A DNA stretch of 40,194 bases, taken from a virus. This document shows, piece after piece, positions 1-36,296 of this stretch. Position 1 is the first letter of the stretch, and each line of letters opens with the position of its first letter. The DNA lies in UHGV virus genome UHGV-0127942, one strand, 5' to 3'. Made by a program: the position numbers and the translations under genes. The notes beneath the pieces were generated by a model. That model did no database searches. It was not told where the DNA came from and worked only from the letters and a program-made list of their open reading frames with translations.

Positions 1-49
1 AAGGTATACTCTCATACCGTCATGAAAATGGTTTCTATACGGGTGAATT

Positions 50-4256: not shown

Positions 4257-5074
4257 ATGTACATATCCTGTTTGCGTGCCCACTCAGGGCGTTTAATGAT
4301 TTCCACACCGCCCCATTCATCATTGATGCGGCATTCGTGATAGGTATTCAGATCCCGGCGGAACAGAGCGTGCCCGGCATCGACATCCGGCGCATCCAGC
4401 TCGAACACGCGTACCGGATACCGACCACAATCAATGCTTTCGCTCACGGCAAGAAAGAAAAAACCATGCGGCTGACCAGTAACCCTCATTGCGCCTTCGC
4501 GGTACATTGCGTCCTGCACGTGGTAGCGGAATTCCTCGATGTGGCGTGCAAAACGGTCCATATCTGCAACCTTTTTCACGTCGACGATCACGTTGTGCTC
4601 GTTCAGCCATTTGTCTGGACGAATGCGGCACAACTCACCAGTCTCTTCATCGTTCCAGTACATTGATGCTTCGCAGTAACCAGGTGCTTCCAGCATCCAG
4701 CGTGCCGCCGGGTGAGCCATTGCGCTATCACGCATCAGCTCCAGTTTCCGCCACTGCTCGGCATCAAGTACCGTAATCCCCATATCCGCTACATCACGAA
4801 GAAATGCTTCTTCGTCAGCTTTACCTTGTTTCGTCCGACGATCGAATTTCGGTGAAACAATGAAGCGTTTGTTGAATTCTCCAGGCTCCAGAAGCAGACA
4901 GTGCAATGCGGTTCCCATATCCAGTGCAGACTTTTTCTCTTCGTCTTCCGGAGCAGCCTTCACCCATTTCAGAAGGGCAGGGTTCTTAGCCACCATATCT
5001 AGCTGCGACTTACTCACGCCGTCACCGGCGTGGTAGTCCTCATTGCTGATGTCGAAATAGATGCCAGTATTCAT
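4253..5074 (-). CDS. Recombination exonuclease, PD-(D/E)XK nuclease superfamily
   Basis: 273 aa; D...DVKK motif region consistent with PD-(D/E)XK; translationally coupled directly upstream of the annealing protein gene; not lambda Exo-like. Confidence 0.6.
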   Translation of the reverse strand: MNTGIYFDISNEDYHAGDGVSKSQLDMVAKNPALLKWVKAAPEDEEKKSALDMGTALHCLLLEPGEFNKRFIVSPKFDRRTKQGKADEEAFLRDVADMGITVLDAEQWRKLELMRDSAMAHPAARWMLEAPGYCEASMYWNDEETGELCRIRPDKWLNEHNVIVDVKKVADMDRFARHIEEFRYHVQDAMYREGAMRVTGQPHGFFFLAVSESIDCGRYPVRVFELDAPDVDAGHALFRRDLNTYHECRINDEWGGVEIIKRPEWARKQDMYI

Positions 5075-5277
5075 AACTTAACCTTGTATTCGTTCTGCTT
5101 GTTGGAACGGGTTCCATCGTGGAAATATATTGCGCTCCTGGTTACCTCTACCCATTTGCGACGTTCAAGCTCAACGATGAACCAAGAAACCTTCGATCTT
5201 GAGATACCAAGAATCTTTGCCATATCTCGGATGCTGTGTTTTCCACCTCGCAGCAATGAGAGGAGTGTTGGTTTCAT
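5071..5277 (-). CDS. Small HTH DNA-binding protein
   Basis: 68 aa; IRDMAKILGISRSKVSWFI looks like a helix-turn-helix; ATGA coupling with both neighbours. Confidence 0.5.
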   Translation of the reverse strand: MKPTLLSLLRGGKHSIRDMAKILGISRSKVSWFIVELERRKWVEVTRSAIYFHDGTRSNKQNEYKVKL

Positions 5278-5747: not shown

Positions 5748-5762
5748 TTACCGTTGAGGTAA
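5748..5762. promoter_or_regulatory. Operator-like palindrome TTACC-N5-GGTAA (leftward early promoter, downstream site)
   Basis: Perfect 5-bp inverted half-sites; lies between the -10 of the leftward promoter and the first ATG (5728), overlapping the RBS. Confidence 0.6.
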
Positions 5763-5808: not shown

Positions 5809-5823
5809 ATTACCCGTTAGGTA
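5809..5823. promoter_or_regulatory. Operator-like palindrome TTACC-N5-GGTAA (leftward early promoter, upstream site)
   Basis: Perfect site about 20 bp upstream of the -35 of the leftward promoter. Confidence 0.6.
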
Positions 5824-5834
5824 ATCGAATAGGC

Positions 5835-5860
5835 AATAAAAAAGCCGCCATAAGGCGGCT
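5835..5860 (-). terminator. Intrinsic terminator after the repressor gene
   Basis: Hairpin AGCCGCC-ATAA-GGCGGCT preceded on the plus strand by an A-run (T-run on the minus strand). Confidence 0.6.
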
Positions 5861-5881
5861 TACTTACTGAAAAATATGGTT

Positions 5882-6466
5882 TTATTGTTTGTTTTTTTCG
5901 TTCTGGTTGATGACAAATTCAATGTAACTTTCGATCTTTGCTTTCTCGGTTTCGGGTAACAATGCGTAGCGCGAGCGATCATAGTTGATGGTCGCAGGGT
6001 CGTGCGGGTGAATCAGTAATTCATAGCCGTGACGCCCGAATGCGGATGCAACATTCTCCAGGGTGGAAATGGAAACGCTGACCTCATTGTTTAACAGGCG
6101 GCTGATTGTCACCTGGGCTACGCCGGATGCGCGGTGAAGTTTTCCCTGTGTTGAAAGGTCGCGGCTTTCGCTCATCCAGCGTTCCAGGTTGTGAGCCGCC
6201 AGCTGGCCAATGTCGCTTGGGCCGACAGGCTGAAAACCTTCCTGAGAAAGCGAGCGATCGATATCAAGCCAGTTACGGGGTTTATTGGCGGCAGCTTCAA
6301 TTTTTCGTGCAACCTGGTCGCCGATAACCTTCTTGCCAAGAGCCCAGCGGTTTACCAGATTTGCCTGAGTTCCAAGTTTTTCAGCCATCCGCGTCTGAAC
6401 ACCATTGAATTCACGGTCGATCAAGTCGTTGAGATTTTGCCTGCGGACGTCCTGGATACTTTTCAT
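5882..6466 (-). CDS. Phage repressor, CI-like with two tandem HTH domains and no LexA-type peptidase domain
   Basis: 194 aa; HTH-like segments near residues 20-45 and 105-140; no S24 peptidase motifs; divergent from a Cro-like gene across an operator-rich 154-bp spacer. Confidence 0.7.
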   Translation of the reverse strand: MKSIQDVRRQNLNDLIDREFNGVQTRMAEKLGTQANLVNRWALGKKVIGDQVARKIEAAANKPRNWLDIDRSLSQEGFQPVGPSDIGQLAAHNLERWMSESRDLSTQGKLHRASGVAQVTISRLLNNEVSVSISTLENVASAFGRHGYELLIHPHDPATINYDRSRYALLPETEKAKIESYIEFVINQNEKNKQ

Positions 6467-6521
6467 TTTCTGGAAAATCGCCTCATATATGAATCAGTAG
6501 ATGATTCAATTTAAAGCAATA

Positions 6522-6536
6522 TTACCCAACAGGTAA
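6522..6536. promoter_or_regulatory. Operator-like palindrome TTACC-N5-GGTAA in the repressor/cro intergenic region
   Basis: Perfect site; two imperfect copies follow at 6539-6553 and 6570-6584. Confidence 0.65.
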
Positions 6537-6569
6537 ATGCACCCCACAGGTAACTATCCTTGATTTTTG

Positions 6570-6584
6570 TTACCTTATGGGTGA
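6570..6584. promoter_or_regulatory. Imperfect operator copy (TTACC-N5-GGTGA) overlapping the putative cro promoter
   Basis: 9/10 half-site match; lies between TTGATT (6560-6565) and a -10-like element upstream of cro. Confidence 0.45.
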
Positions 6585-6620
6585 ATATTTATTATCTGAA
6601 ATAAATATCAGGCAATAGCT

Positions 6621-6851
6621 ATGAGCGATAACGGACATTTCGATTTCAAAAAGCACTGGCTTGCACTTACTCCGGATGAGCGTGAAGCCTTCGCACAGGA
6701 AGCCGGAACGACGAGTCACTATATCCAGACTCACTTAACAGGTAAGCGCAAAATGCCAGGTAAGGTATTGATGAATGGGCTTTTTAAAGCCTGTAAAACA
6801 AGACAATGGCTGCGCTCAAAAGCAGAATTGGCATACTTCTTCTACTCATGA
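6621..6851 (+). CDS. Cro-like small transcriptional regulator
   Basis: 76 aa with HTH-like segment EAFAQEAGTTSHYIQTHLTGKRKMP; divergent from repressor; followed by an intrinsic terminator. Confidence 0.6.
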   Translation: MSDNGHFDFKKHWLALTPDEREAFAQEAGTTSHYIQTHLTGKRKMPGKVLMNGLFKACKTRQWLRSKAELAYFFYS

Positions 6852-6873
6852 TATCCAGCCACAACCCTCTGTA

Positions 6874-6896
6874 GACCGCCATCCGGCGGTCTTTTC
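6874..6896 (+). terminator. Intrinsic terminator after cro-like gene
   Basis: Hairpin GACCGCC-ATCC-GGCGGTC followed by TTTTC. Confidence 0.6.
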
Positions 6897-7001
6897 ATAT
6901 CTATTCGTACCTCAAAGGTAATAAAAAACCAAATCTGGTTGATCTTTTTTTTGTGTCAGCACAAAATGACCGTAATCCCAATACTAATAACAGGGCTTGC
7001 C

Positions 7002-8852: not shown

Positions 8853-8867
8853 TTACCTGTCAGGTAA
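8853..8867. promoter_or_regulatory. Operator-like palindrome TTACC-N5-GGTAA upstream of the middle operon
   Basis: Perfect site, about 20 bp upstream of the -35 TTGATT at 8887-8892. Confidence 0.6.
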
Positions 8868-8886: not shown

Positions 8887-8915
8887 TTGATTTCGTGTCT
8901 TATGTGGTTTTTAAT
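8887..8915 (+). promoter_or_regulatory. Middle-operon promoter, sigma70-like
   Basis: TTGATT, 17-bp spacer containing TATGTGGTT, -10-like TTTAAT; bracketed by two operator palindromes. Confidence 0.45.
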
Positions 8916-8929
8916 TACCTCAGAGGTAA
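8915..8929. promoter_or_regulatory. Operator-like palindrome TTACC-N5-GGTAA overlapping the RBS of the gene at 8933
   Basis: Perfect site; its right half contains the GAGG Shine-Dalgarno 4 nt before the ATG. Confidence 0.6.
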
Positions 8930-8932
8930 ATC

Positions 8933-9277
8933 ATGAGAAAACAGATACAGGCTCTTGGTCGACTCAAAACAGGTCAGATGAACAAAACAGAATCTGCGTA
9001 TTGCCAGCACCTTGAGCTGCGTAAACGTGCAGGAGAAATCGTCTGGTATCGATTTGAGGGTATCAAGCTGCGGTTAGCTGACAACACGTTCTATACGCCA
9101 GATTTTGCTGTGATGCTCGCCACCGGCGAGATGGAACTGCACGAAGTGAAAGGTTTCTGGACCGACGACGCCAGGGTGAAAACCAAAGTCGCCGCAGATC
9201 AGTATCCGTTCCGAATCATCGGGGTAACGGTTAAACCAAAGAAAGCAGGTGGTGGCTGGATCATCGAAGAGTTCTGA
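8933..9277 (+). CDS. Hypothetical phage protein, possibly DUF1064-like
   Basis: 114 aa; first gene after the terminator that follows the P-like gene; family assignment is from memory only. Confidence 0.5.
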   Translation: MRKQIQALGRLKTGQMNKTESAYCQHLELRKRAGEIVWYRFEGIKLRLADNTFYTPDFAVMLATGEMELHEVKGFWTDDARVKTKVAADQYPFRIIGVTVKPKKAGGGWIIEEF

Positions 9278-13226: not shown

Positions 13227-13241
13227 TTACCACAACGGTAA
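13227..13241. promoter_or_regulatory. Operator-like palindrome TTACC-N5-GGTAA upstream of terminase small subunit
   Basis: Perfect site between the terminator at 13190-13215 and the terS start; an imperfect copy TTACC-N5-GGTTA follows at 13245-13259. Confidence 0.55.
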
Positions 13242-13258
13242 CTATTACCACGGTGGTT

Positions 13259-13855
13259 ATGATGCCTGCTGAACCTAAAACCTATAAACGCAAATCAACG
13301 CAATTTAAGCCACTAACAGCAATGCAGGAGGCTTATTGCCAGTCATACATCAAAACGCCTGAAAACCAGACTCAGGCAGCGATTAACGCAGGATTCTCCC
13401 CAAATACAGCGGCAGTTAAAGCCAGTGTCATGATGCGCGATGAACGCATTCAAAAACGGATTGCCGAGTTGATGGAGGAGCGCAACAAACGAATGCGCGT
13501 CAGTGCCGATTACGTTCTCATGCGCCTGGTGGAGATCGACCAGATGGACGTGATTGATATCCTCAACGACGATGGGAGCCTTAAGCCAATCCGCGAGTGG
13601 CCGAAAATCTGGCGCACTACGCTTAGTGGCTTTGATCTGTCATCGACCATCATGAACATGAACGAGGATTCGATAGAGACAATCCTCAAAAAAATTAAAT
13701 GGCCTGACAAGGTGAAGAACCTCGAACTGATTGGTAAGCACGTCGACGTCAACGCATTCAAAGAACGCCTGGATGTTAATGTGAATGTGACAATTGCTGA
13801 TCGCATAGCGGCAGCCAGGAAGCGACTCAAAGAACGTCAGGATGGTAATCAGTGA
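13259..13855 (+). CDS. Terminase small subunit
   Basis: Directly upstream of and overlapping the large terminase gene; start moved to 13259 because an intrinsic terminator hairpin (13190-13215) lies inside the longer ORF-track version. Confidence 0.6.
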   Translation: MMPAEPKTYKRKSTQFKPLTAMQEAYCQSYIKTPENQTQAAINAGFSPNTAAVKASVMMRDERIQKRIAELMEERNKRMRVSADYVLMRLVEIDQMDVIDILNDDGSLKPIREWPKIWRTTLSGFDLSSTIMNMNEDSIETILKKIKWPDKVKNLELIGKHVDVNAFKERLDVNVNVTIADRIAAARKRLKERQDGNQ

Positions 13856-15987: not shown

Positions 15988-16064
15988 TGGCGTGGTATGC
16001 AGGATTCGAACCTGCGACCAACCGCTTAGAAGGCGGTTGGTCTGTCCAACTGAGCTAATACCAC
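15988..16064 (-). tRNA. tRNA-Arg (anticodon UCU)
   Basis: Reverse complement reads GTGGTAT...anticodon stem-loop ACCGC-CTTCTAA-GCGGT...T-arm GCAGGTTCGAATCCTGC...ACCACG-CCA; architecture close to E. coli argU; D-arm pairing looks imperfect. Confidence 0.75.
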
Positions 16065-16386: not shown

Positions 16387-16401
16387 TTACCTGAAAGGTA
16401 A
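16387..16401. promoter_or_regulatory. Operator-like palindrome TTACC-N5-GGTAA upstream of the head-gene operon
   Basis: Perfect site 44 bp upstream of a TATGTGGTT element and about 90 bp upstream of the gp6.7-like gene. Confidence 0.55.
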
Positions 16402-16444: not shown

Positions 16445-16466
16445 TATGTGGTTAAATTGGTAATAA
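16445..16466 (+). promoter_or_regulatory. Candidate late promoter: TATGTGGTT-N6-TAATAA
   Basis: Conserved element 6 bp upstream of a -10-like hexamer; no good -35; upstream of the gp6.7-like and portal genes. Confidence 0.4.
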
Positions 16467-19391: not shown

Positions 19392-20384
19392 ATGACAATG
19401 GCTGTTAAAGGCTTAACTGCGCTAACGCTGGCTGACTGGGGTAAGCGCGTCGATCCAAACGGGAAAGTCGATAAGATTATCGAGCTTCTCGGTCAAACTA
19501 ACCCGATCCTTCAGGATATGCCTTTTGTCGAAGGGAACCTTCCTACCGGACACCGAACCACCATTCGTTCTGGTTTACCTTCAGCTACCTGGCGTTTGCT
19601 GAACTATGGCGTACAGCCAAGCAAATCAACAACGGTGCAGGTCACTGATTCCATTGGCATGCTGGAAACCTATGCTGAAGTCGATAAGTCACTGGCTGAT
19701 CTGAACGGCAATACCGCCGAATTCCGCCTGTCTGAAGACCGCGCATTTATTGAAGCGATGAATCAGCAGATGGCGCAGACGCTGTTTTATGGTGATTCCA
19801 GCGTTAACCCTCAGCAGTTTATGGGACTGTCCTCCCGCTATTCCAGCCTGTCTGCGGGTAATGCTCAGAACATCATTGATGCTGGTGGCACGGGTACAGA
19901 TAACACCTCAATCTGGTTAGTGGTGTGGGGCGAAAACACCGTGCATGGCATCTTCCCGAAAGGGCAGAAGGCTGGCATCCAGATGGAAGATAAAGGCCAG
20001 GTGACACTGGAAGATGCTGATGGCGGCAAGTACGAAGGCTATCGCACCCATTATAAATGGGATAACGGACTTGCTCTGCGTGACTGGCGTTATGTTGTTC
20101 GCATTGCAAACATCGATGTCAGCAATCTTTCAGAACCTTCCTCTGCCGCAAATATTGCGAAGTTGATGGTTAAAGCACTGCATCGCATTCCAAACCGTGG
20201 CATGGGCCGCCCGGTGTTCTACATGAACCGCACTGTAGGCCAGGCTCTTGATCTGCAATCTCTGGAGAAAACATCTCTGGCGATCAGCGTAAAAGAGACA
20301 GAAGGCGAGTGGTGGACTTCATTCCGTGGTGTACCAATCCGTGAAACTGATGCGCTTCTGGAAACAGAAGCCCGCGTGGTGTAA
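19392..20384 (+). CDS. Major capsid protein
   Basis: 330 aa immediately after the scaffold gene, strong RBS, followed by a stem-loop; position and size typical of a major capsid protein. Confidence 0.7.
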   Translation: MTMAVKGLTALTLADWGKRVDPNGKVDKIIELLGQTNPILQDMPFVEGNLPTGHRTTIRSGLPSATWRLLNYGVQPSKSTTVQVTDSIGMLETYAEVDKSLADLNGNTAEFRLSEDRAFIEAMNQQMAQTLFYGDSSVNPQQFMGLSSRYSSLSAGNAQNIIDAGGTGTDNTSIWLVVWGENTVHGIFPKGQKAGIQMEDKGQVTLEDADGGKYEGYRTHYKWDNGLALRDWRYVVRIANIDVSNLSEPSSAANIAKLMVKALHRIPNRGMGRPVFYMNRTVGQALDLQSLEKTSLAISVKETEGEWWTSFRGVPIRETDALLETEARVV

Positions 20385-29995: not shown

Positions 29996-32470
29996 ATGAG
30001 ACAGGAATGTATACAAGCGGTTCAGCAGGCGGCGCAGCGCACGTTAACGGCGCGAGAAATACAGAACATTGAAGACCGCATTTATCGAAATATGCGCTCC
30101 ATTGCTCGTGATGACCCGATGTCGTGGAGACAACTTTCCGAATCAGAGCGGCTATATCGAGCAGCACAATTGGCATCTGAAGAATTACAGCGAGAAGCGG
30201 CATTAAAGAAACGTCGTGTGGCCCTCACTATAGCCGCACGTCAGAGATTGGATAAATTTATCAATAGCTATCAAGGGGCTGATGGGAAACTTGGCGCTCT
30301 TAACCGTACTATTGCTTTTAATGCAGACGGTAAATCGAATTTCCTCTCTGTTGAGTCCAGAACAAAAGCCACTCGTGATTATGCATTGAGTCAATTGCAG
30401 GAGGCATTTGAAGCAGTTGATCCTCGCTTTTTTGGCCTGTTTGAAGATGAAGCTGGCGTGCGTGATCTGGTATATGAAATGCGAGGGCAAAATACTGGCA
30501 ATGCTAAAGCAAGAAAAGGTGCTAAGGCGTGGAGAGAAGTTACAGAGCTGCTGCGCCGCCGGTTTAATGATGCTGGTGGGGACATTGGCTATCTCGAAAA
30601 CTGGGGGATCCCTCAACATCATTCTATGGAAAAGGTTGGGGCGGTATCAAAAGATAAATGGGTTAGCGATGTTATAGGTAAGCTGGATCGCAAATATTAT
30701 ACCCGAGCCGATGGACAACTGATGAACGATGCCGAGTTGTCTGCATTTCTTGGAGAGGCTTATAACACGATCGCTACTGGTGGGCTGAATAAGCTTACTG
30801 ATACCGGAATGCGAATTTCCGGCGCACGTGCTAACCGTGGTAATGCATCACGACAGATACATTTCAAAGATGCAGATTCCTATCTGCAATATCAGCAACT
30901 TTATGGCGATCGCTCTCTATGGGAAATCATGGTCGGTCACCTTGAAGGTATCAGTAAAGATATTGCACTGGTGGAAACATATGGCCCAAACCCCGATCAT
31001 GTTTTCCGCTCTCTTCTTGATCAGGTGAAGGCAGAAACGGCAACAGCTAACCCGAGTAAAACCGGTAAAGTCGAGCGGCTGGCGAACAACACAGAGAATC
31101 TGTACAACTTTATTTCCGGAAAGACACAGCCTGTAGCGAATCCGCACATCGCGCGATGGTCTGACAATATCCGCAACTGGCTGGTTGCCAGCAGACTCGG
31201 ATCCGCGTTGCTGTCATCGTTCTCTGATCTTGGAACCATGTATCTGTCTGCGAAGGTTACCAACCTTCCAATGAACCAGTTATTCCGCAACCAGCTTGAA
31301 GCTATGGACCCAACGAACCGTACAGAACTTGCGCGGGCGCGCCGCGCTGGTCTGGCGATGGAATCTCTACTTGGCAGCGTTAACCGCTGGGCGATGGATA
31401 ATATGGGGCCGTCTGTGTCTCGTTGGGCGGCAACGGCGGTAATGCGTGCCAGTGGGCTTACAGCATGGTCAGATGCGCACAAGCGCGCCTATGGCGTAAC
31501 CATGATTGGAAGCCTGGGAGAAGTAGTGTCACGGACACCAGACCTTCGTAGCCTCGATAATTCTGATTTTCGTATCCTGAAAAGCAAAGGGATTACTGAC
31601 ACAGACTGGAGCGTATGGAAGCTGGCGCAACAGGAGGACTGGGGGAACGGCAATAATACGATGCTGACACCGGAAAGCATTATGCGTATCCCTGATTCAG
31701 CAGTTAAACATCTTGGTGAGCCTGAACGCGTGAAATTTGAGGCAATGCGTAAACTGCTCGGTGCCGTAACTGAAGAAGTTGATATGGCTGTTATTACACC
31801 GGGAGCACGTGAGCAACTGATAACCGGTTCTGGTATTCAGCGTGGAACATGGAAAGGTGAATTAACGAGAAGTGTTTTCCTGTTTAAATCGTTCCCTATC
31901 TCGGTGGTTATGCGTCACTGGTCACGCGCTATGGGTATGCCGTCTGCTGGTGGGCGTGCGGCATATATTGCGACGTTTATTGCCAGTACGACCATTCTTG
32001 GCGCTTTGTCGCAGCAACTTAACGACCTTGCGTCTGGTCGTAATCCTCGCGAGATGACAGGAGAAGATGCTGCTAAATTTTGGCTTGGTGCTCTACTGAA
32101 AGGTGGTGGTCTTGGCCTTTACGGTGACTTTTTATTGTCAGATCACACTAGGTACGGAAGCGGCGCGCTGGCGTCGATGCTTGGCCCGGTAGCTGGTCTG
32201 GTTGATGACGTAGTGAAGATTGCTCAGGGCATACCGTTAAATGCTGTGGAAGGGAAGAGTGAGCAGACTGGTGGTGATCTGGTGAAGCTGGGGAAAGGTT
32301 TGATGCCAGGTGCGAATCTCTGGTACTTAAAGGCGGCTCTCGATCATATGATCTTTAACCAGATGCAGGAGTATTTTTCACCAGGCTATTTGCGTAAAAT
32401 GGAGCAACGTTCGAAGAAAGAGTTTAATCAGACATACTGGTGGCGACCTCAGGATGTCACTCCGCAATAA
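29996..32470 (+). CDS. Internal virion / ejection protein (gp16-position)
   Basis: 824 aa; together with the preceding gene occupies the position of T7 gp16. Confidence 0.5.
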   Translation: MRQECIQAVQQAAQRTLTAREIQNIEDRIYRNMRSIARDDPMSWRQLSESERLYRAAQLASEELQREAALKKRRVALTIAARQRLDKFINSYQGADGKLGALNRTIAFNADGKSNFLSVESRTKATRDYALSQLQEAFEAVDPRFFGLFEDEAGVRDLVYEMRGQNTGNAKARKGAKAWREVTELLRRRFNDAGGDIGYLENWGIPQHHSMEKVGAVSKDKWVSDVIGKLDRKYYTRADGQLMNDAELSAFLGEAYNTIATGGLNKLTDTGMRISGARANRGNASRQIHFKDADSYLQYQQLYGDRSLWEIMVGHLEGISKDIALVETYGPNPDHVFRSLLDQVKAETATANPSKTGKVERLANNTENLYNFISGKTQPVANPHIARWSDNIRNWLVASRLGSALLSSFSDLGTMYLSAKVTNLPMNQLFRNQLEAMDPTNRTELARARRAGLAMESLLGSVNRWAMDNMGPSVSRWAATAVMRASGLTAWSDAHKRAYGVTMIGSLGEVVSRTPDLRSLDNSDFRILKSKGITDTDWSVWKLAQQEDWGNGNNTMLTPESIMRIPDSAVKHLGEPERVKFEAMRKLLGAVTEEVDMAVITPGAREQLITGSGIQRGTWKGELTRSVFLFKSFPISVVMRHWSRAMGMPSAGGRAAYIATFIASTTILGALSQQLNDLASGRNPREMTGEDAAKFWLGALLKGGGLGLYGDFLLSDHTRYGSGALASMLGPVAGLVDDVVKIAQGIPLNAVEGKSEQTGGDLVKLGKGLMPGANLWYLKAALDHMIFNQMQEYFSPGYLRKMEQRSKKEFNQTYWWRPQDVTPQ

Positions 32471-32479
32471 GGAAGTGTT

Positions 32480-32649
32480 GTGTTTTTAATTATTTTGAGT
32501 GTGATAATTTCTGGTGGGTTGTTATTTATTGACCGCTACAAATATTTTCTTAACCCTCAGACTCAAGCTATTTGCTGGTTCATCTTTGTTGTGCAGGGAA
32601 TAGTTCTTGTTGCAAGCCTTATTGAGGGGAGGCCTCTGATTTTTACTGG
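32480..32649 (+). CDS. Possible small hydrophobic protein (about 57 aa)
   Basis: Not in the ORF track; GTG at 32480 five nt after AAGGAAG; product VFLIILSVIISGGLLFIDRY... is strongly hydrophobic. Confidence 0.25.
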
Positions 32650-32665
32650 GTAAATAGGTGACTAC

Positions 32666-32956
32666 ATGCAAGCTATAGGATTCATTGTTTATATCGTCGT
32701 TGGTCTTTTTCAGTTGGCAGCAATTATGGCTGGGCTTGAATCATGGTGGGGATTGCACTGGATAATTGCAGCCCCCATTGCTTTCATCGTGAGCTATATT
32801 CCATTTGTTGGAGCGATTGTTGGTATGGTTGGTGCTGTGGATGTATGGCGGTGGGAGTGGTGGCAGGCTGGCCTTCTCTTCTTTGGTGGGATCATCTTTG
32901 CTATTGTCTGCGGTGGAATGTCATCATTTTTCGAACGGCTATCATTCAGAAAATGA
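32666..32956 (+). CDS. Small integral membrane protein
   Basis: 96 aa with several predicted transmembrane stretches (IVYIVVGLFQLAAIMAGL..., IAAPIAFIVSYIPFVGAIVGMVGAV...); followed by a palindrome and a terminator. Confidence 0.5.
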   Translation: MQAIGFIVYIVVGLFQLAAIMAGLESWWGLHWIIAAPIAFIVSYIPFVGAIVGMVGAVDVWRWEWWQAGLLFFGGIIFAIVCGGMSSFFERLSFRK

Positions 32957-32958
32957 AC

Positions 32959-32970
32959 GTGACATGTCAC
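32959..32970. promoter_or_regulatory. 12-bp perfect palindrome GTGACATGTCAC (copy 3)
   Basis: 3 nt after the stop of the membrane-protein gene and directly abutting the terminator hairpin at 32971-32995. Confidence 0.5.
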
Positions 32971-32995
32971 AGGCCGCTTTCGCGGCCTTTTCTTT
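32971..32995 (+). terminator. Intrinsic terminator after the internal-virion/membrane-protein block
   Basis: Hairpin AGGCCGC-TTTC-GCGGCCT followed by TTTTCTTT. Confidence 0.6.
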
Positions 32996-33251
32996 ATGTG
33001 GTTTGTTTTCGTAATTGTTCGGCACAATAGTCGAGATGTGTTTGCAGATCCCGCATAGACATCTGTGAGCTGGTGACGTAGTTAATCAGTGCAGTCAGTT
33101 CGGCAAGTGGGCCATCGACATTAAATCCATCCTTATCGAGATCCCGGAGTAATTTCATCAAGTGCGATCCCTCCACCAGTGACCTGACGCCTCCCGGCGT
33201 GTGGATCCTTTCGGTAAATCCGTCTTCCAGTGGATAGTGATACTGCTGCAT
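32994..33251 (-). CDS. LexA-controlled small protein, candidate antirepressor
   Basis: 85-aa minus-strand ORF with RBS GGAGAAG; promoter immediately upstream contains a near-consensus LexA box; no protein family I can name. Confidence 0.6.
   Translation of the reverse strand: MQQYHYPLEDGFTERIHTPGGVRSLVEGSHLMKLLRDLDKDGFNVDGPLAELTALINYVTSSQMSMRDLQTHLDYCAEQLRKQTT
32995..33016 (+). promoter_or_regulatory. Candidate promoter: TATGTGGTTT-N6-GTAATT
   Basis: Perfect 10-mer immediately after the terminator at 32971-32995; would transcribe antisense across the LexA-controlled gene. Confidence 0.35.
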
Positions 33252-33270: not shown

Positions 33271-33290
33271 AACTGTATATTTATACAGTA
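33271..33290 (-). promoter_or_regulatory. LexA (SOS) box within the promoter of the minus-strand gene 32994-33251
   Basis: CTGT-ATATTTAT-ACAG (core 33273-33288); minus-strand 20-mer TACTGTATAAATATACAGTT matches the remembered LexA consensus TACTGTATATATATACAGTA at 18/20; sits in the spacer between TTGATA and a -10-like hexamer. Confidence 0.75.
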
Positions 33291-33327: not shown

Positions 33328-33342
33328 TTACCCGAAAGGTAA
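33328..33342. promoter_or_regulatory. Operator-like palindrome TTACC-N5-GGTAA between the LexA-controlled gene and the tail-fibre gene
   Basis: Perfect site 32 bp upstream of TATGTGGTTT (33374-33383) and about 40 bp from the LexA box. Confidence 0.55.
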
Positions 33343-33373
33343 TATCTGTTCATATTCACAGTCTTTCTATCCA

Positions 33374-33398
33374 TATGTGGTTTTTCAGGTAATAGAAT
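33374..33398 (+). promoter_or_regulatory. Candidate late promoter: TATGTGGTTT-N6-TAATAGAAT
   Basis: Perfect 10-mer followed by -10-like TAATAG/TAGAAT, about 50-70 bp upstream of the tail-fibre ATG. Confidence 0.4.
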
Positions 33399-33446: not shown

Positions 33447-36296
33447 ATGACGGTCTCAACCGAAGTTGACCACAACGAATACACAGGTAACGGCGTTACG
33501 ACATCATTTCCGTATACCTTCCGTATTTTCAAAAAATCCGACCTGGTTGTTCAGGTGTCTGACCTTAACGGTAACGTAACAGAACTAGTGCTGGATGCTG
33601 GTTATACAGTAACAGGGGCGGGAACTTATAGTGGCGGTGCAGTGGTTCTTCCGTCGCCGCTTGCTGCTGGCTGGCGAATCACGATAGAGCGTGTGCTTGA
33701 TGTGGTGCAGGAGACTGATCTTCGCAATCAGGGAAAATTTTTCCCCGAAGTTCATGAAGATGCATTTGACTACCTGACGATGCTGATCCAGCGATGTTTT
33801 GGGTGGTTCAGACGTGCATTGATGAAACCATCTTTGCTTGCAAAATATTACGATGCAAAGCAAAACAGAATTTCCAATTTGGCCGATCCGAAGAACTCTC
33901 AGGATGCTGTAACAAAAAAATATGTGCAAGACTTATATAGTGGGGTAGTTAGGCCTGATAACATCGACAACGCAATGTATGTTACAGATCTCGCTAATGG
34001 CAAATATGACAGCTCTCGCTTGGACATGTCTGTCGGGTATGAGATAAAAACCATTTCAAACTTTGTCAGGATTAATGGGGCTGTTTATCGTGTTACTCCT
34101 GCTGCAGTCGGCATAGTGACAGAAATAACCTCGCGTTACATTTTGGCCGGAGGGAAAAAAAGCTACCTGTCTCATATTTCCAGGCATGTCAGTGGTACGC
34201 GTAGGCCGCTGAACTGGAAATTAGAATTCAGCATCATAGACGATGAGATTACCGCAGATCTTAAAGATCAGTATGGTTACACGACCATGGGATTTCAGGG
34301 GATTTACATAGACAGCAATGATGGAATGGTATACATCGGCTGGCAGACGCTAGACCCCGCATCGGTATGGGTTACGGTGCATGACTGGGTAACAGGAGCA
34401 TTGGTAACACGTCTTCATTTTCCGAATAACGTTGGTGCACCAGAAGGCATCCACGTTTACCGAGTGGCAGGACAGCGTTACATCCTGCTGCCGTACAGCC
34501 CATCTCGCACTATCAGAATTTACCCTATCGAAGATCCGCGTACGCTGGTTGATAAAACGCAGATTACAAACTTCACTGAATCAACACGCCTTGGAGTGCG
34601 ATATCAGTTTAGTGGCTTTGGTAATACCCTGATATACGAAAATGCGGATATGGGTTGGCCGAAAATTTTTGATGTTGAGACAGGTGTATCCAATATCTTT
34701 AACACACTGGATATTAACAGCCTTATAGAAGGATCTTACAGTCCAATGGGGACTATTACGGTTGATGCAAATGTTGGAGGTCGCGGAGCCGGTAAACCAA
34801 AACGGCAGGGTGTCGCTCTTGGTTCTCAACGGATATTTGCTGGTATTGGTGCATCTACCACGGCGGGATCTGGAAATACTTTCGCAGGGTTGCAGGGTTA
34901 TATTGAGTACAGCCTTAATGGTTCAGAATTAGGTCAGTACCTGCTGTCACCTGCAGATTTCAAAACATACTGGGATAGTTATTCAGGGAAGAGTGTTTAC
35001 TCCACTGAAAATGAGGGGGTGCAGTCTTGTGATATTTCTGGCTCTGAGGAATTGTATCTTCTACAGTCTATTCGCTATGACAATGGGGGCGGATCAAATT
35101 ATAGGACTTTAAACATCATTCGCGCTAACTGTCCATCTAATGAACCTGGAACAGTAGACATGACTCCGCTATCCAATGCCTCATCACAGTTATTTAACCC
35201 TCGCGGAAGGGTGATTAACGCTGGCCGTCACCCTGTAAACCCGGCTGATGGTATTGCGCTATTTACATCGGCACAGGCTATTTGTGACTATTTGCGGAAT
35301 ACAGATGCAGGTAGATATGTGACATATCTTGAACAGGATATGCCACTGTTTGAAGGTGGGCCATCTGCGCCAGGACAGATGACGCTGCCAGCATTCTGCC
35401 TATTGCAGATCGACTTCATCAACGGCGATACCTGGGAAATTACAGTTAATGGAACTAACAGGGCTAATAATTATACAGGAAGGATTTCCAAAAACGGCGG
35501 GTACAACTCTTTTACTAAGGTGTCCTCCCGCAGCATGTCGATTCTCGGATCCCCTGGTCTGGTTGATGTATCAATTCGCTCACCTAACTCACTAAATCTT
35601 CCAGAATTTGCTGGAGACTGGTCTACTGGTGTAAGTATAGGAGCTGCAGGTGGGGTGACAAACTGGCAGCCAGAAGGAACAGGTAACGGAGCATTATGGG
35701 AGTCAGGATATGCAAAAAACCGTGTGTTGCAGATATTCATGTCCACAACATCAAAACTGTTCTTCCGCTACGCAGACGATGCTATTCGCGCAGGTAACAC
35801 AGGCTGGGCTGAGGCATGGTCGTCGCTGAACACGACCGTCGATTCAAGTGGTTTCATCAAAAAAGCCTCTCCGGTTGTGAAGATTTTCTCAGACGGTAGT
35901 AGTGAAACAAATCGCGAATCAGATGGGGTAACCGTCACACGGCTGGCATTGGGGGAATATCTGATTGAGGGTTGCGTAGGTCTGAATGCAGATGCTTCAT
36001 GGGGGGGGATTGATGGTGGATTTGAAATACCGCAGGACCGAAACAAGCAGCCGCTCATCTGGCTGGATTATGTTGTTAACCAAGATGGCTCTGTGTTGGT
36101 GAAAACGTTTCACCGCACTCATGATAACTCGCCCGTTTTTGCACGTAACGACATCCCTGGTGTTTCGAACGGTGACCCGATCGACATTCCTGCTAATCAG
36201 TTCGTTTCTGTGCGAGTACAGATGCCTGAGGATTCAGCATGGAATAAGCTTAAGGAACAACTCAATAAGGCTGAACCAATGGAAAAAAATAAGTAA
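33447..36296 (+). CDS. Tail fibre / tailspike protein with T7 gp17-like N-terminal adaptor domain
   Basis: 949 aa; N-terminal about 160 residues (GNGVTTSFPYTFRIF...RISNLADPKNSQDAVTKKYV) resemble the T7 tail-fibre N-terminal domain; divergent C-terminal region. Confidence 0.8.
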   Translation: MTVSTEVDHNEYTGNGVTTSFPYTFRIFKKSDLVVQVSDLNGNVTELVLDAGYTVTGAGTYSGGAVVLPSPLAAGWRITIERVLDVVQETDLRNQGKFFPEVHEDAFDYLTMLIQRCFGWFRRALMKPSLLAKYYDAKQNRISNLADPKNSQDAVTKKYVQDLYSGVVRPDNIDNAMYVTDLANGKYDSSRLDMSVGYEIKTISNFVRINGAVYRVTPAAVGIVTEITSRYILAGGKKSYLSHISRHVSGTRRPLNWKLEFSIIDDEITADLKDQYGYTTMGFQGIYIDSNDGMVYIGWQTLDPASVWVTVHDWVTGALVTRLHFPNNVGAPEGIHVYRVAGQRYILLPYSPSRTIRIYPIEDPRTLVDKTQITNFTESTRLGVRYQFSGFGNTLIYENADMGWPKIFDVETGVSNIFNTLDINSLIEGSYSPMGTITVDANVGGRGAGKPKRQGVALGSQRIFAGIGASTTAGSGNTFAGLQGYIEYSLNGSELGQYLLSPADFKTYWDSYSGKSVYSTENEGVQSCDISGSEELYLLQSIRYDNGGGSNYRTLNIIRANCPSNEPGTVDMTPLSNASSQLFNPRGRVINAGRHPVNPADGIALFTSAQAICDYLRNTDAGRYVTYLEQDMPLFEGGPSAPGQMTLPAFCLLQIDFINGDTWEITVNGTNRANNYTGRISKNGGYNSFTKVSSRSMSILGSPGLVDVSIRSPNSLNLPEFAGDWSTGVSIGAAGGVTNWQPEGTGNGALWESGYAKNRVLQIFMSTTSKLFFRYADDAIRAGNTGWAEAWSSLNTTVDSSGFIKKASPVVKIFSDGSSETNRESDGVTVTRLALGEYLIEGCVGLNADASWGGIDGGFEIPQDRNKQPLIWLDYVVNQDGSVLVKTFHRTHDNSPVFARNDIPGVSNGDPIDIPANQFVSVRVQMPEDSAWNKLKEQLNKAEPMEKNK

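What the first reader, a model, noticed from the sequence alone, without database searches (positions are those of the whole stretch)
5882..6620. Immunity region: peptidase-less tandem-HTH repressor with a three-site operator cluster
The 194-aa repressor has two HTH-like segments and lacks any S24 (LexA/CI-type) autocleavage domain. The 154-bp spacer to the Cro-like gene holds one perfect and two imperfect TTACC-N5-GGTAA sites at centre-to-centre spacings of about 17 and 31 bp. The architecture is lambda-like, but the induction mechanism must differ (see LexA-box finding).
Basis: partly seen in the sequence, partly recalled or inferred. Interest (0 to 1): 0.55.

Follow-up and report, generated by a model that had tools for sequence, protein, structure and literature searches.

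The report
Known phiV10-type phage repressor switch
This is the lysogeny switch of a common phiV10/epsilon15-type E. coli prophage: a repressor that is not self-cleaving, with its operator sites. The repressor family, its operator motif and its antirepressor-based induction have already been described, so the finding is correct but ordinary.

Summary
A 194-aa ORF (5882-6466, minus strand) is separated by 154 bp from a 76-aa HTH gene (6621-6851). The spacer carries TTACC-N5-GGTAA sites at 6522 (perfect), 6539 (2 mismatches) and 6570 (1 mismatch), with centres 17 and 31 bp apart.

No S24 peptidase domain is detectable. The protein is 100% identical to phiV10 gp40 and vB_EcoP_ZX5 ORF21, which overexpression showed to be the lytic repressor. 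It is a full-length homologue (E 4e-42) of Salmonella phage SPC32H Rep (PDB 5D50/5D4Z). Rep is a tetramer with an N-terminal HTH DNA-binding domain, a middle dimerisation domain and a C-terminal tetramerisation/Ant-binding domain.

An Ant orthologue (32994-33251, 87% identical to SPC32H Ant) sits behind a LexA box conserved across the genus (33273-33288).

The three sites belong to a larger set of eight perfect sites in the window (0.03 expected). All eight fall outside the genes assigned here, at places shared with relatives. The epsilon15 RefSeq record already annotates this motif as repressor-binding. The region occurs in 556 of 5426 complete E. coli genomes.

Verdict: real, correctly read, already known.

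The parts
5882..6466 (-). rep: 194-aa prophage repressor of the SPC32H Rep family. Domains: N-terminal HTH DNA-binding domain about 1-70, linker 71-84, middle HTH-fold domain 85-151, C-terminal domain 152-194.
   Evidence: ORF. It is 100% identical to phiV10 gp40 and ZX5 repressor and matches PDB 5D50 at E 4e-42 over residues 1-190. AF2 model, Foldseek top hits 5D50/5D4Z, Pfam.
5842..5861 (-). Intrinsic terminator after rep.
   Evidence: Found by the scan. It folds at -15.3 kcal/mol, z -4.2.
6522..6536 (.). Rep-proximal operator (perfect TTACCCAACAGGTAA). It overlaps the candidate rep promoter: -35 TTTACC at 6537-6532, -10 TAAATT at 6513-6508 or TTAAAT at 6514-6509, on the minus strand.
   Evidence: Site. 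The GGTAAA and AATTnAA columns are invariant in 6 genomes, and the same hexamers occur in L007 and L008. The promoter assignment is my inference.
6539..6553 (.). Middle operator (GCACCCCACAGGTAA, 2 mismatches), lying between the two divergent -35 hexamers.
   Evidence: Site. It aligns with perfect sites in epsilon15, SPC32H and BUCT711, and its degenerate form is conserved in Tyrion and BUCT554.
6570..6584 (.). Cro-proximal operator (TTACCTTATGGGTGA, 1 mismatch), lying inside the rightward early promoter.
   Evidence: Site. The promoter scan gives TTGTTA-17-TATTAT at 6567-6595. The invariant TTGATTTTT at 6560-6568 suggests an alternative -35 at 6560-6565 with -10 GAATAT at 6583-6588 (inference).
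6621..6851 (+). First rightward gene: a 76-aa Cro-like HTH protein (phiV10 gp41 / epsilon15 gp39 homologue).
   Evidence: ORF. It matches PHROG 35 'transcriptional repressor' at E 5.6e-13. No Pfam, NCBIfam or PDB sequence match.
6873..6892 (+). Intrinsic terminator after the Cro-like gene.
   Evidence: Found. It folds at -15.0 kcal/mol, z -5.2.
6907..6921 (.). One-mismatch operator (GTACCTCAAAGGTAA) upstream of the replication-gene block.
   Evidence: Site. One-mismatch sites occur at the same place in phiV10, Tyrion, BUCT554 and BUCT711.
5748..5762 (.). OL-type operator overlapping the -10/start of the leftward early promoter (perfect).
   Evidence: Site. Promoter TTGACA-17-AATTAT at 5790-5762 on the minus strand, 10/12 matches.
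5810..5824 (.). OL-type operator upstream of the -35 of the leftward promoter (perfect), 62 bp from the 5748 site.
   Evidence: Site. The pair is 62 bp apart in phiV10, Tyrion, BUCT554, epsilon15 and SPC32H and 63 bp in BUCT711. epsilon15 annotates the equivalents as repressor-binding.
8853..8867 (.). Upstream operator of a second 62-bp pair, before the DUF1064 gene (perfect).
   Evidence: The pair is syntenic in all 7 genomes.
8915..8929 (.). Downstream operator of that pair. It overlaps the promoter start and the ribosome-binding site of the gene starting at 8933 (perfect).
13227..13259 (.). Two adjacent operators (perfect at 13227-13241, one mismatch at 13245-13259; 18 bp apart) upstream of the small terminase gene.
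   Evidence: epsilon15 annotates the equivalent at 12-27 as repressor-binding.
16387..16401 (.). Single perfect operator upstream of the head-gene block.
   Evidence: The epsilon15 equivalent at 2931-2947 is annotated as repressor-binding.
33328..33342 (.). Single perfect operator in the ant-tailspike intergenic region.
   Evidence: It is conserved in 7 genomes. The epsilon15 equivalent at 19895-19911 is annotated as repressor-binding.
32994..33251 (-). ant: 85-aa antirepressor orthologue.
   Evidence: 73/84 residues (87%) identical to the annotated SPC32H ant product, E 5e-57. Also PHROG 450.
33273..33288 (.). LexA box CTGTATATTTATACAG, 22 bp upstream of the ant start codon.
   Evidence: 4 CTGT-N8-ACAG sites against 0.42 expected. 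The CTGTAT...ACA core is invariant in 7 genomes.

Best explanation
The region is the immunity switch of a complete phiV10-like (genus Uetakevirus, epsilon15-like) prophage.

The 194-aa protein is the phage's Rep repressor, a member of the SPC32H Rep family. Its N-terminal HTH domain, with the invariant NLVNRW helix, reads the half-site TTACC. Two such domains occupy one TTACC-N5-GGTAA palindrome. The second HTH-fold domain (85-151) dimerises the protein, and the C-terminal ~40 residues build the tetramer and form the docking surface for the antirepressor. A tetramer therefore offers two DNA-binding pairs and can hold two operators at once.

In the 154-bp spacer, the cro-proximal site (6570) lies inside the rightward early promoter and blocks it. 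The rep-proximal perfect site (6522) overlaps the weak rep promoter. The middle site lies between the two -35 elements. This layout resembles lambda OR. Two more perfect sites 62 bp apart bracket the leftward early promoter, a like pair brackets the promoter before the DUF1064 gene, and further sites sit before the terminase, head and ant/tailspike units. Rep would thus silence most transcription units directly.

Induction does not involve Rep cleavage. DNA damage inactivates LexA, which frees the ant promoter (LexA box 33273-33288). Ant (85 aa) then binds the Rep C-terminal domains, breaks the tetramer into dimers and releases the DNA.

Shown here: homology, domain layout, absence of S24, the site statistics and synteny, and the Ant orthologue with its LexA box. 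Taken from the literature: repressor function of the identical ZX5 protein, and tetramer, domain roles and Ant action in SPC32H. Inferred: the promoter assignments, which site does what, looping between paired sites, and Cro-like protein sharing the operators.
For: Identity: the window matches phiV10, PAS61 and phiv142-3 at about 98% over 95% of a 4-kb query, and Rep is 100% identical in 13 phage records.

Function: overexpression of the identical ZX5 ORF21 abolished free phage and cut endolysin and holin transcripts by 99.97-99.99% (PMC9782041).

Family: PDB 5D50 'Repressor' matches at E 4e-42 over residues 1-190, and the Foldseek top 11 hits are all 5D50/5D4Z chains.

Domain roles in SPC32H Rep are an N-terminal DBD, a middle dimerisation domain and a C-terminal CAD that tetramerises and binds Ant (PMC9986798). 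It binds DNA as a tetramer, and tetrameric Ant splits it into dimers (PMC9638917).

No S24.

Operators: 8 perfect sites against 0.03 expected. The same motif has 8-11 perfect copies in each of six other Uetakevirus genomes and is by far the most frequent 5-N5-5 palindrome in each. The sites are syntenic, and the epsilon15 RefSeq record annotates seven of them as 'protein_bind: repressor'.

The N-terminal domain is the best conserved part against SPC32H Rep (54%, versus 31% for the middle domain and 44% for the C-terminal domain), and NLVNRW is invariant in the six phage Reps. This matches the invariant half-site.

Promoter overlaps.

Ant is 87% identical to SPC32H Ant and its LexA box is conserved in 7 genomes. 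LexA-controlled Ant induction is credited to Kim and Ryu 2013 in PMC7380047.
Against: No binding experiment exists for this protein on these sites. The ZX5 work used overexpression only and mapped no operators. I could not read the primary SPC32H papers or the epsilon15 genome paper, so the domain roles come from citing papers and from my memory of the abstracts.

The operator motif does not vary across any relative examined, including 54-60% identical Reps. Covariation therefore cannot tie the motif specifically to Rep rather than to the Cro-like protein.

Rep is only 42% identical to SPC32H Rep, and the C-terminal domain only 44%. Tetramerisation and Ant docking are extrapolated.

The strongest consensus match sits on the rep promoter rather than on the lytic promoter. 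This is the opposite of the lambda OR affinity order and is unexplained. The antirepressor tested in ZX5 was a different, Bro-N protein that this window lacks.
Confidence: 0.88

Rival explanations
1. True tandem-HTH DNA reading: both HTH domains of each monomer contact DNA, so operator recognition involves four helix-turn-helix units per dimer. This would be a new binding mode.
For: The middle domain gives the only above-threshold Pfam HTH_3 hit (E 1.2e-9). It keeps conserved Q118 and R123 in its putative recognition helix. Adjacent sites 17-18 bp apart exist.
Against: The operator is a simple 15-bp palindrome with only two 5-bp half-sites and a non-conserved spacer, which suits one HTH per half-site. 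In the solved homologue the middle domain is described as a dimerisation domain and the DBD is N-terminal (PMC9986798). The middle domain is the least conserved part of the protein (31%) while the half-site is invariant.
Confidence: 0.07
2. The TTACC-N5-GGTAA sites are mainly the targets of another regulator, such as the 76-aa Cro-like protein or a late regulator. Rep would act elsewhere or only at some of them.
For: No covariation between Rep sequence and motif could be obtained because the motif is invariant. The perfect OR site lies on the rep promoter, where a Cro-type protein would be expected to act. The epsilon15 annotation is a prediction.
Against: The sites flank rep on both sides at the early promoters, exactly where a prophage repressor must act. 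Overexpressed Rep shuts off late lysis genes (PMC9782041). The best conserved Rep domain is the N-terminal DBD. Shared use by Rep and Cro, as in lambda, is compatible with the main explanation.
Confidence: 0.05
3. Rep is a cryptic CI/LexA-type repressor inactivated by RecA-stimulated self-cleavage.
For: None beyond the lambda-like gene layout.
Against: There is no Peptidase_S24 hit at E <= 1. The model is all-helical with no beta-rich domain. The fold hits are XRE-type regulators only. A conserved LexA-controlled Ant is present.
Confidence: 0.01
4. The palindromes act as RNA hairpins, for example to mask a ribosome-binding site or to pause or terminate transcription, rather than as protein-binding DNA.
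For: Site 8915-8929 overlaps the ribosome-binding site of the gene at 8933.
Against: The hairpins are weak at -3.3 to -4.2 kcal/mol, compared with -15 for the true terminators nearby. The arms have the same sequence everywhere rather than covarying, and the imperfect sites break the pairing instead of compensating. Several sites lie upstream of promoters.
Confidence: 0.01

Closest known systems
Salmonella phage SPC32H Rep / Ant / LexA antirepression switch (Kim & Ryu 2013, J Virol; Kim et al. 2016, PNAS; PDB 5D4Z, 5D50)
   Same: Rep is homologous over its full length (E 4e-42, 42% identity) with the same three-part layout and no peptidase domain. Ant is 87% identical. The LexA box before ant, the gene order (ant next to the tailspike gene; rep between the leftward and rightward early operons) and the TTACC-N5-GGTAA sites at the same places are all shared.
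   Different: The host is E. coli rather than Salmonella. The Rep sequence has diverged, most in the middle domain (31%). The middle OR site is degenerate here but perfect in SPC32H. SPC32H has a third OL-side site.
phiV10 gp40 / vB_EcoP_ZX5 ORF21 repressor (Perry et al. 2009; PMC9782041)
   Same: The protein is identical. The phiV10 RefSeq note already says 'two helix-turn-helix motifs; similar to putative repressor epsilon15p38'. ZX5 ORF21 was shown to block lytic growth.
   Different: Those records and that paper do not annotate the operators. phiV10 and ZX5 also carry a Bro-N 'anti-repressor' gene that this window lacks.
epsilon15 gp38 and the repressor-binding sites annotated in NC_004775.2 (Kropinski et al. 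2007)
   Same: The motif is the same (ATTACC-N5-GGTAAT) and is annotated as 'protein_bind: repressor' before terS, before gp3, between gp19 (ant) and the tail fibre gene, at OL and before the resolvase gene. The window has sites at the corresponding positions.
   Different: The epsilon15 record does not mark the three sites in the rep-gp39 spacer, although they are present there (33341, 33358, 33388).
Lambda CI / Cro with OR1-OR3 and OL
   Same: The repressor gene lies between the leftward and rightward early promoters. Three operators sit between divergent repressor and cro-type genes, and operators overlap the promoter cores.
   Different: There is no S24 autocleavage domain. The repressor is a tetramer with a p53-like tetramerisation domain rather than a dimer-to-octamer assembly. 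Site spacing is 17 and 31 bp. The best consensus site lies on the repressor's own promoter. Extra operators lie at late-gene units.
Other SOS-antirepressor systems: coliphage 186 CI/Tum, Gifsy and Fels-2 repressors with LexA-controlled antirepressors, P22 Ant
   Same: The logic is the same: a non-cleavable repressor is inactivated by a small antirepressor whose gene is repressed by LexA (PMC7380047).
   Different: I did not test homology to those proteins. Ant here gave only a weak partial hit to an 'anti-repressor' PHROG (E 6.6e-7).
Dispersed repressor sites in other phages (mycobacteriophage L5 'stoperators', P1 C1 operators). This comparison rests on my own knowledge.
   Same: One repressor has many copies of one short site spread over the genome, including the late regions.
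   Different: Here the sites are symmetric palindromes placed at promoters, outside the genes assigned in this window. They are few (8 perfect), and some form 62-bp pairs around promoters.

Membership tests
SPC32H-type Rep repressor (Rep/Ant/LexA antirepression switch) | Full-length sequence homology to SPC32H Rep | tested here: met
   phmmer against PDB: 5d50_A at E 4e-42, query 1-190 aligned to chain 2-197. tblastn gives 41.8% identity over 98% of the query.
SPC32H-type Rep repressor (Rep/Ant/LexA antirepression switch) | Three-part architecture: N-terminal HTH DBD, middle helical dimerisation domain, C-terminal tetramerisation/Ant-binding segment | tested here: met
   The AF2 model has helical domains 1-70 and 85-151 plus a C-terminal 152-194 with a long helix at 172-193. 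It aligns to 5D50 and 5D4Z. Domain names come from PMC9986798.
SPC32H-type Rep repressor (Rep/Ant/LexA antirepression switch) | Cognate small antirepressor Ant encoded next to the tailspike gene | tested here: met
   ORF 32994-33251 (-) is 87% identical to the annotated SPC32H ant product. The tailspike ORF starts at 33447.
SPC32H-type Rep repressor (Rep/Ant/LexA antirepression switch) | LexA box at the ant promoter | tested here: met
   CTGTATATTTATACAG at 33273-33288. Its core is invariant in 7 genomes.
SPC32H-type Rep repressor (Rep/Ant/LexA antirepression switch) | Rep forms a tetramer, binds operator DNA as a tetramer, and is dissociated by Ant | not testable with these tools
   Known only for SPC32H (PMC9638917). 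Testing it here needs SEC-MALS, EMSA and pull-down experiments.
SPC32H-type Rep repressor (Rep/Ant/LexA antirepression switch) | Genome carries multiple TTACC-N5-GGTAA operators at the early promoters | tested here: met
   8 perfect sites against 0.03 expected. They are syntenic with SPC32H and epsilon15.
Lambda CI / LexA-type autocleaving repressors | C-terminal Peptidase_S24 domain with a Ser-Lys dyad | tested here: not met
   No S24 hit at E <= 1 for the whole protein or at E <= 10 for the C-terminal 49 residues. The model is all-helical, and no peptidase appears among the fold hits.
Lambda CI / LexA-type autocleaving repressors | XRE/Cro-C1-type HTH DNA-binding domain at the N-terminus | tested here: inconclusive
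   Only sub-threshold Pfam hits (YdaS-type E 4.5e-4; HTH_3 E 0.013). The fold is HTH-like.
Pfam HTH_3 (PF01381) tandem-domain proteins | Two HTH_3 domains above the gathering threshold | tested here: not met
   Only residues 106-147 pass (38.5 bits against a cutoff of 23). The N-terminal segment alone scores 15.9 bits. The two domains share no detectable sequence similarity.
CTXphi RstR family (NCBIfam NF041951) | Score above the curated cutoff | tested here: not met
   19.7 bits against a cutoff of 80.

The most novel reading that the evidence does not exclude
Rep may act as a genome-wide silencer through promoter-bracketing loops. One tetramer would clamp two operators 62 bp apart (about six helical turns) around the leftward early promoter and the DUF1064-gene promoter. 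Single or adjacent sites would silence the terminase, head and tailspike units. The site beside the ant promoter would put the antirepressor under a double lock of Rep plus LexA. The sites are annotated in epsilon15, but in the papers I could read this architecture has not been analysed experimentally.
Probability: 0.3. Interest if true: 0.3.

Novelty: already known. Interest (0 to 1): 0.12.

Why it matters
The finding adds little that is new. The repressor family, its structure, its antirepressor and LexA control are published for SPC32H. The identical protein has been tested in ZX5. The operator motif is annotated in epsilon15.

Its practical value is for annotation. The switch sits in about one in ten complete E. 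coli genomes, where it is labelled only 'helix-turn-helix domain-containing protein'. The operator map given here (eight perfect sites, two 62-bp pairs, three-site OR) could be transferred to those prophages. It could also guide experiments on how a tetrameric repressor uses paired sites.

Tried and rejected
Papers I could not read:
- Kim & Ryu 2013, Kim et al. 2016 and Kropinski et al. 2007 are not held. The published operator mapping for SPC32H could not be checked, so I used citing papers and the epsilon15 RefSeq features instead.

Tests that gave no discrimination or no result:
- I looked for covariation between the Rep recognition helix and the operator half-site across seven Uetakevirus genomes and two more distant prophages (Rep 54-60% identical). 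The motif is TTACC-N5-GGTAA everywhere, so the test cannot discriminate.
- The RNA-hairpin reading of the palindromes is rejected because the hairpins are weak and the arms do not covary.
- BLASTP found no similarity between the two HTH domains, so there is no sign of an internal duplication.
- Rfam found only a tRNA in the window.
- NCBIfam gave nothing above its cutoffs, and the Cro-like protein had no PDB sequence match.
- My first spaced pattern for the TATGTGGTT motif was mis-specified and was replaced.

Correction:
- My early note of nine perfect sites was a miscount. There are eight.

Not done:
- I did not use the large representative search or a second structure job, because the family assignment was already decisive.
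Full report
**1. What is in the sequence**

The window carries a minus-strand ORF at 5882-6466 (194 aa) and a plus-strand ORF at 6621-6851 (76 aa), separated by 154 bp. The spacer holds TTACCCAACAGGTAA at 6522-6536 (perfect), GCACCCCACAGGTAA at 6539-6553 (two mismatches) and TTACCTTATGGGTGA at 6570-6584 (one mismatch).

The motif is far above chance. There are 8 perfect copies against 0.03 +/- 0.17 in shuffles, and 33 copies with up to two mismatches against 10.9 +/- 3.0. From the shuffle rate, about 0.04 such sites are expected in 154 bp, so three give a probability near 1e-5 (my arithmetic).

**2. Where the window comes from**

A 4-kb stretch around the finding matches Escherichia phages phiV10, PAS61, phiv142-3 and others at about 98% identity. 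The 194-aa protein is 100% identical in 13 phage records.

The window is a whole phiV10-like (Uetakevirus, epsilon15-like) prophage. It runs from the integrase gene (50-1306) to the lysis genes (to about 38351), with flanking ORFs beyond.

The immunity region itself occurs in 556 of 5426 complete E. coli genomes, annotated there only as 'helix-turn-helix domain-containing protein'.

**3. The protein**

- Pfam gives HTH_3 above threshold for residues 106-147 (E 1.2e-9). It gives only sub-threshold HTH matches for residues 21-67 (YdaS-type E 3-4.5e-4; HTH_3 E 0.013). Nothing matches the last 49 residues, and there is no Peptidase_S24.
- A sequence search of the PDB finds the SPC32H repressor, 5D50, at E 4e-42 over residues 1-190, and 5D4Z for residues 89-190.
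- An AlphaFold model from 26 homologues (mean pLDDT 77.5) has two helical HTH-type domains (1-70 and 85-151), a disordered linker and a C-terminal segment ending in a long helix. Its best Foldseek matches are the 5D50 and 5D4Z chains, followed by XRE-type regulators. No peptidase appears.
- The two HTH domains share no detectable sequence similarity.

According to papers that discuss the SPC32H structure, Rep has an N-terminal DNA-binding domain, a middle dimerisation domain and a C-terminal domain (CAD). The CAD makes the tetramer and binds the antirepressor (PMC9986798). Rep binds DNA as a tetramer, with the DNA-binding pairs drawn from different dimers. Tetrameric Ant splits it into dimers (PMC9638917).

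In the characterised homologue, however, the second HTH is a dimerisation module, and a third domain was overlooked.

**4. Direct evidence that it is the repressor**

The identical protein, ORF21 of vB_EcoP_ZX5, was overexpressed. Free phage disappeared, and endolysin and holin transcripts fell by 99.97-99.99% (PMC9782041). That study mapped no operators.

**5. The operators are a genome-wide set**

The other five perfect sites lie at 5748 and 5810, 8853 and 8915, 13227 (with a one-mismatch neighbour at 13245), 16387 and 33328. They fall:
- between the rep terminator and the first leftward gene (5748, 5810);
- between the replication P-like gene and the DUF1064 gene (8853, 8915);
- before the small terminase gene (13227, 13245);
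- before the head-gene block (16387);
- between ant and the tailspike gene (33328).

A one-mismatch site at 6907 follows the terminator of the Cro-like gene.

In six other Uetakevirus genomes, TTACC with a 5-bp gap is by far the most frequent 5-bp inverted repeat, at 8-11 perfect copies each. The copies lie at the same relative places. The epsilon15 RefSeq record already carries seven 'protein_bind: repressor' features on ATTACC-N5-GGTAAT at exactly these places. It does not mark the three sites in its own rep-gp39 spacer, though they are present.

The three-site layout of the spacer is conserved in all six aligned genomes. Two more distant prophages, whose Reps are 54-60% identical, also have a perfect rep-proximal site with degenerate sites beside it.

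**6. Promoter context**

The scan finds a strong leftward promoter (TTGACA-17-AATTAT, 5790-5762). Site 5748 overlaps its -10/start, and site 5810 lies about 20 bp upstream of its -35. The 8853/8915 pair has the same geometry around TTGATT-17-TTTAAT (my reading). Both pairs are 62 bp apart, about six helical turns. This spacing is conserved across the genus, with 63 bp for the OL pair in BUCT711.

In the spacer, the rightward promoter is either TTGTTA-17-TATTAT at 6567-6595 or the invariant TTGATT at 6560-6565 with GAATAT at 6583-6588. Site 6570 lies inside it in either case.

For rep, I propose -35 TTTACC (6537-6532) and -10 TAAATT or TTAAAT (6514-6508). Those columns are invariant in six genomes, and the same hexamers recur in the two distant loci. 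If so, the perfect site 6522 covers the -35 and spacer of the rep promoter. These promoter assignments are inferences.

**7. Induction**

ORF 32994-33251 (minus strand, 85 aa) is 87% identical to the annotated SPC32H ant product. A LexA box, CTGTATATTTATACAG, lies 22 bp upstream of its start at 33273-33288. Its core is invariant in seven genomes.

A review credits Kim and Ryu 2013 with showing that, after LexA self-cleavage, Ant is made and inactivates the repressor by protein-protein contact (PMC7380047).

**8. What links the motif to Rep, and the limits of that link**

The N-terminal domain is the best conserved part of Rep against SPC32H: 54%, versus 31% for the middle domain and 44% for the C-terminal domain. 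The helix NLVNRW is invariant in the six phage Reps, which matches an invariant half-site.

Shared use, as in lambda, is likely. The Cro-like protein matches PHROG 35 'transcriptional repressor' at E 5.6e-13 but nothing in Pfam, NCBIfam or the PDB sequences.

An RNA role for the palindromes is unlikely. The hairpins fold at only -3.3 to -4.2 kcal/mol, against -15 for the nearby terminators. The arms are identical everywhere rather than covarying.

**9. Comparison and verdict**

The system works like, and belongs to, the SPC32H Rep/Ant/LexA switch. All sequence-testable defining features are met. Tetramerisation and Ant binding cannot be tested here.

It resembles lambda in gene order and in having three operators between divergent promoters. 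It fails the defining S24 feature of CI/LexA-type repressors.

The protein, its role, its family structure, its induction route and its operator motif are all on record. The finding is real and correctly interpreted but already known.

What remains open is how a tetramer uses the 17-, 31- and 62-bp site pairs. It is also unclear why the best consensus site sits on the rep promoter. Both are modest questions.

Noticed in passing
window 8901-8909, 16445-16453, 33374-33382 (also 32995-33003): TATGTGGTT occurs four times on the plus strand against 0.31 expected. Three copies lie 35-45 bp downstream of a Rep operator, and two of those sit just upstream of GGTAATA. At the tailspike promoter the surrounding CATATnnGGTT...GGTAATAnAAT columns are invariant in seven genomes. 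It may be a shared promoter or activator element for middle or late units.
   Followed up: partly
window 33346-33361: A second perfect CTGT-N8-ACAG LexA-like box (CTGTTCATATTCACAG) sits directly beside the Rep operator at 33328. It is present in this window but not in phiV10 or the other five genomes aligned.
   Followed up: partly
window 33328-33342: A Rep-type operator lies about 10-25 bp upstream of the putative ant -35 (conserved TGGATA on the minus strand). Rep may therefore co-regulate its own antirepressor or the divergent tailspike gene.
   Followed up: partly
window 1-7 and L002 26870-26884: The window starts inside a conserved one-mismatch operator (TTACCTTAAAGGTAT) that lies 43-57 bp upstream of the integrase gene in phiV10 and in the other free-phage genomes. 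Only AAGGTAT is visible at the window edge.
   Followed up: yes
window 15988-16064 (-): A tRNA-Arg (anticodon TCT) gene lies in the region between the terminase and head genes, as in SPC32H.
   Followed up: no
window 5071-5277 (-): A 68-aa winged-helix (MarR/ArsR-like, sub-threshold) ORF lies in the leftward early operon between the exonuclease gene and the conserved small genes. phiV10 annotates a RecE-RecT fusion in this area instead.
   Followed up: no
window 32470-32994: This prophage lacks the Bro-N 'anti-repressor' gene that phiV10 (p23) and ZX5 (ORF4) carry next to ant. A 96-aa ORF of unknown function (32666-32956, PHROG 3075) is there instead.
   Followed up: partly
Rep and Ant across genomes (window, L001, L004-L006): Ant is much better conserved than its partner Rep: 87% against 42% overall between this phage and SPC32H, and 44% for the Ant-binding C-terminal domain of Rep. 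This could allow cross-induction between related prophages.
   Followed up: no
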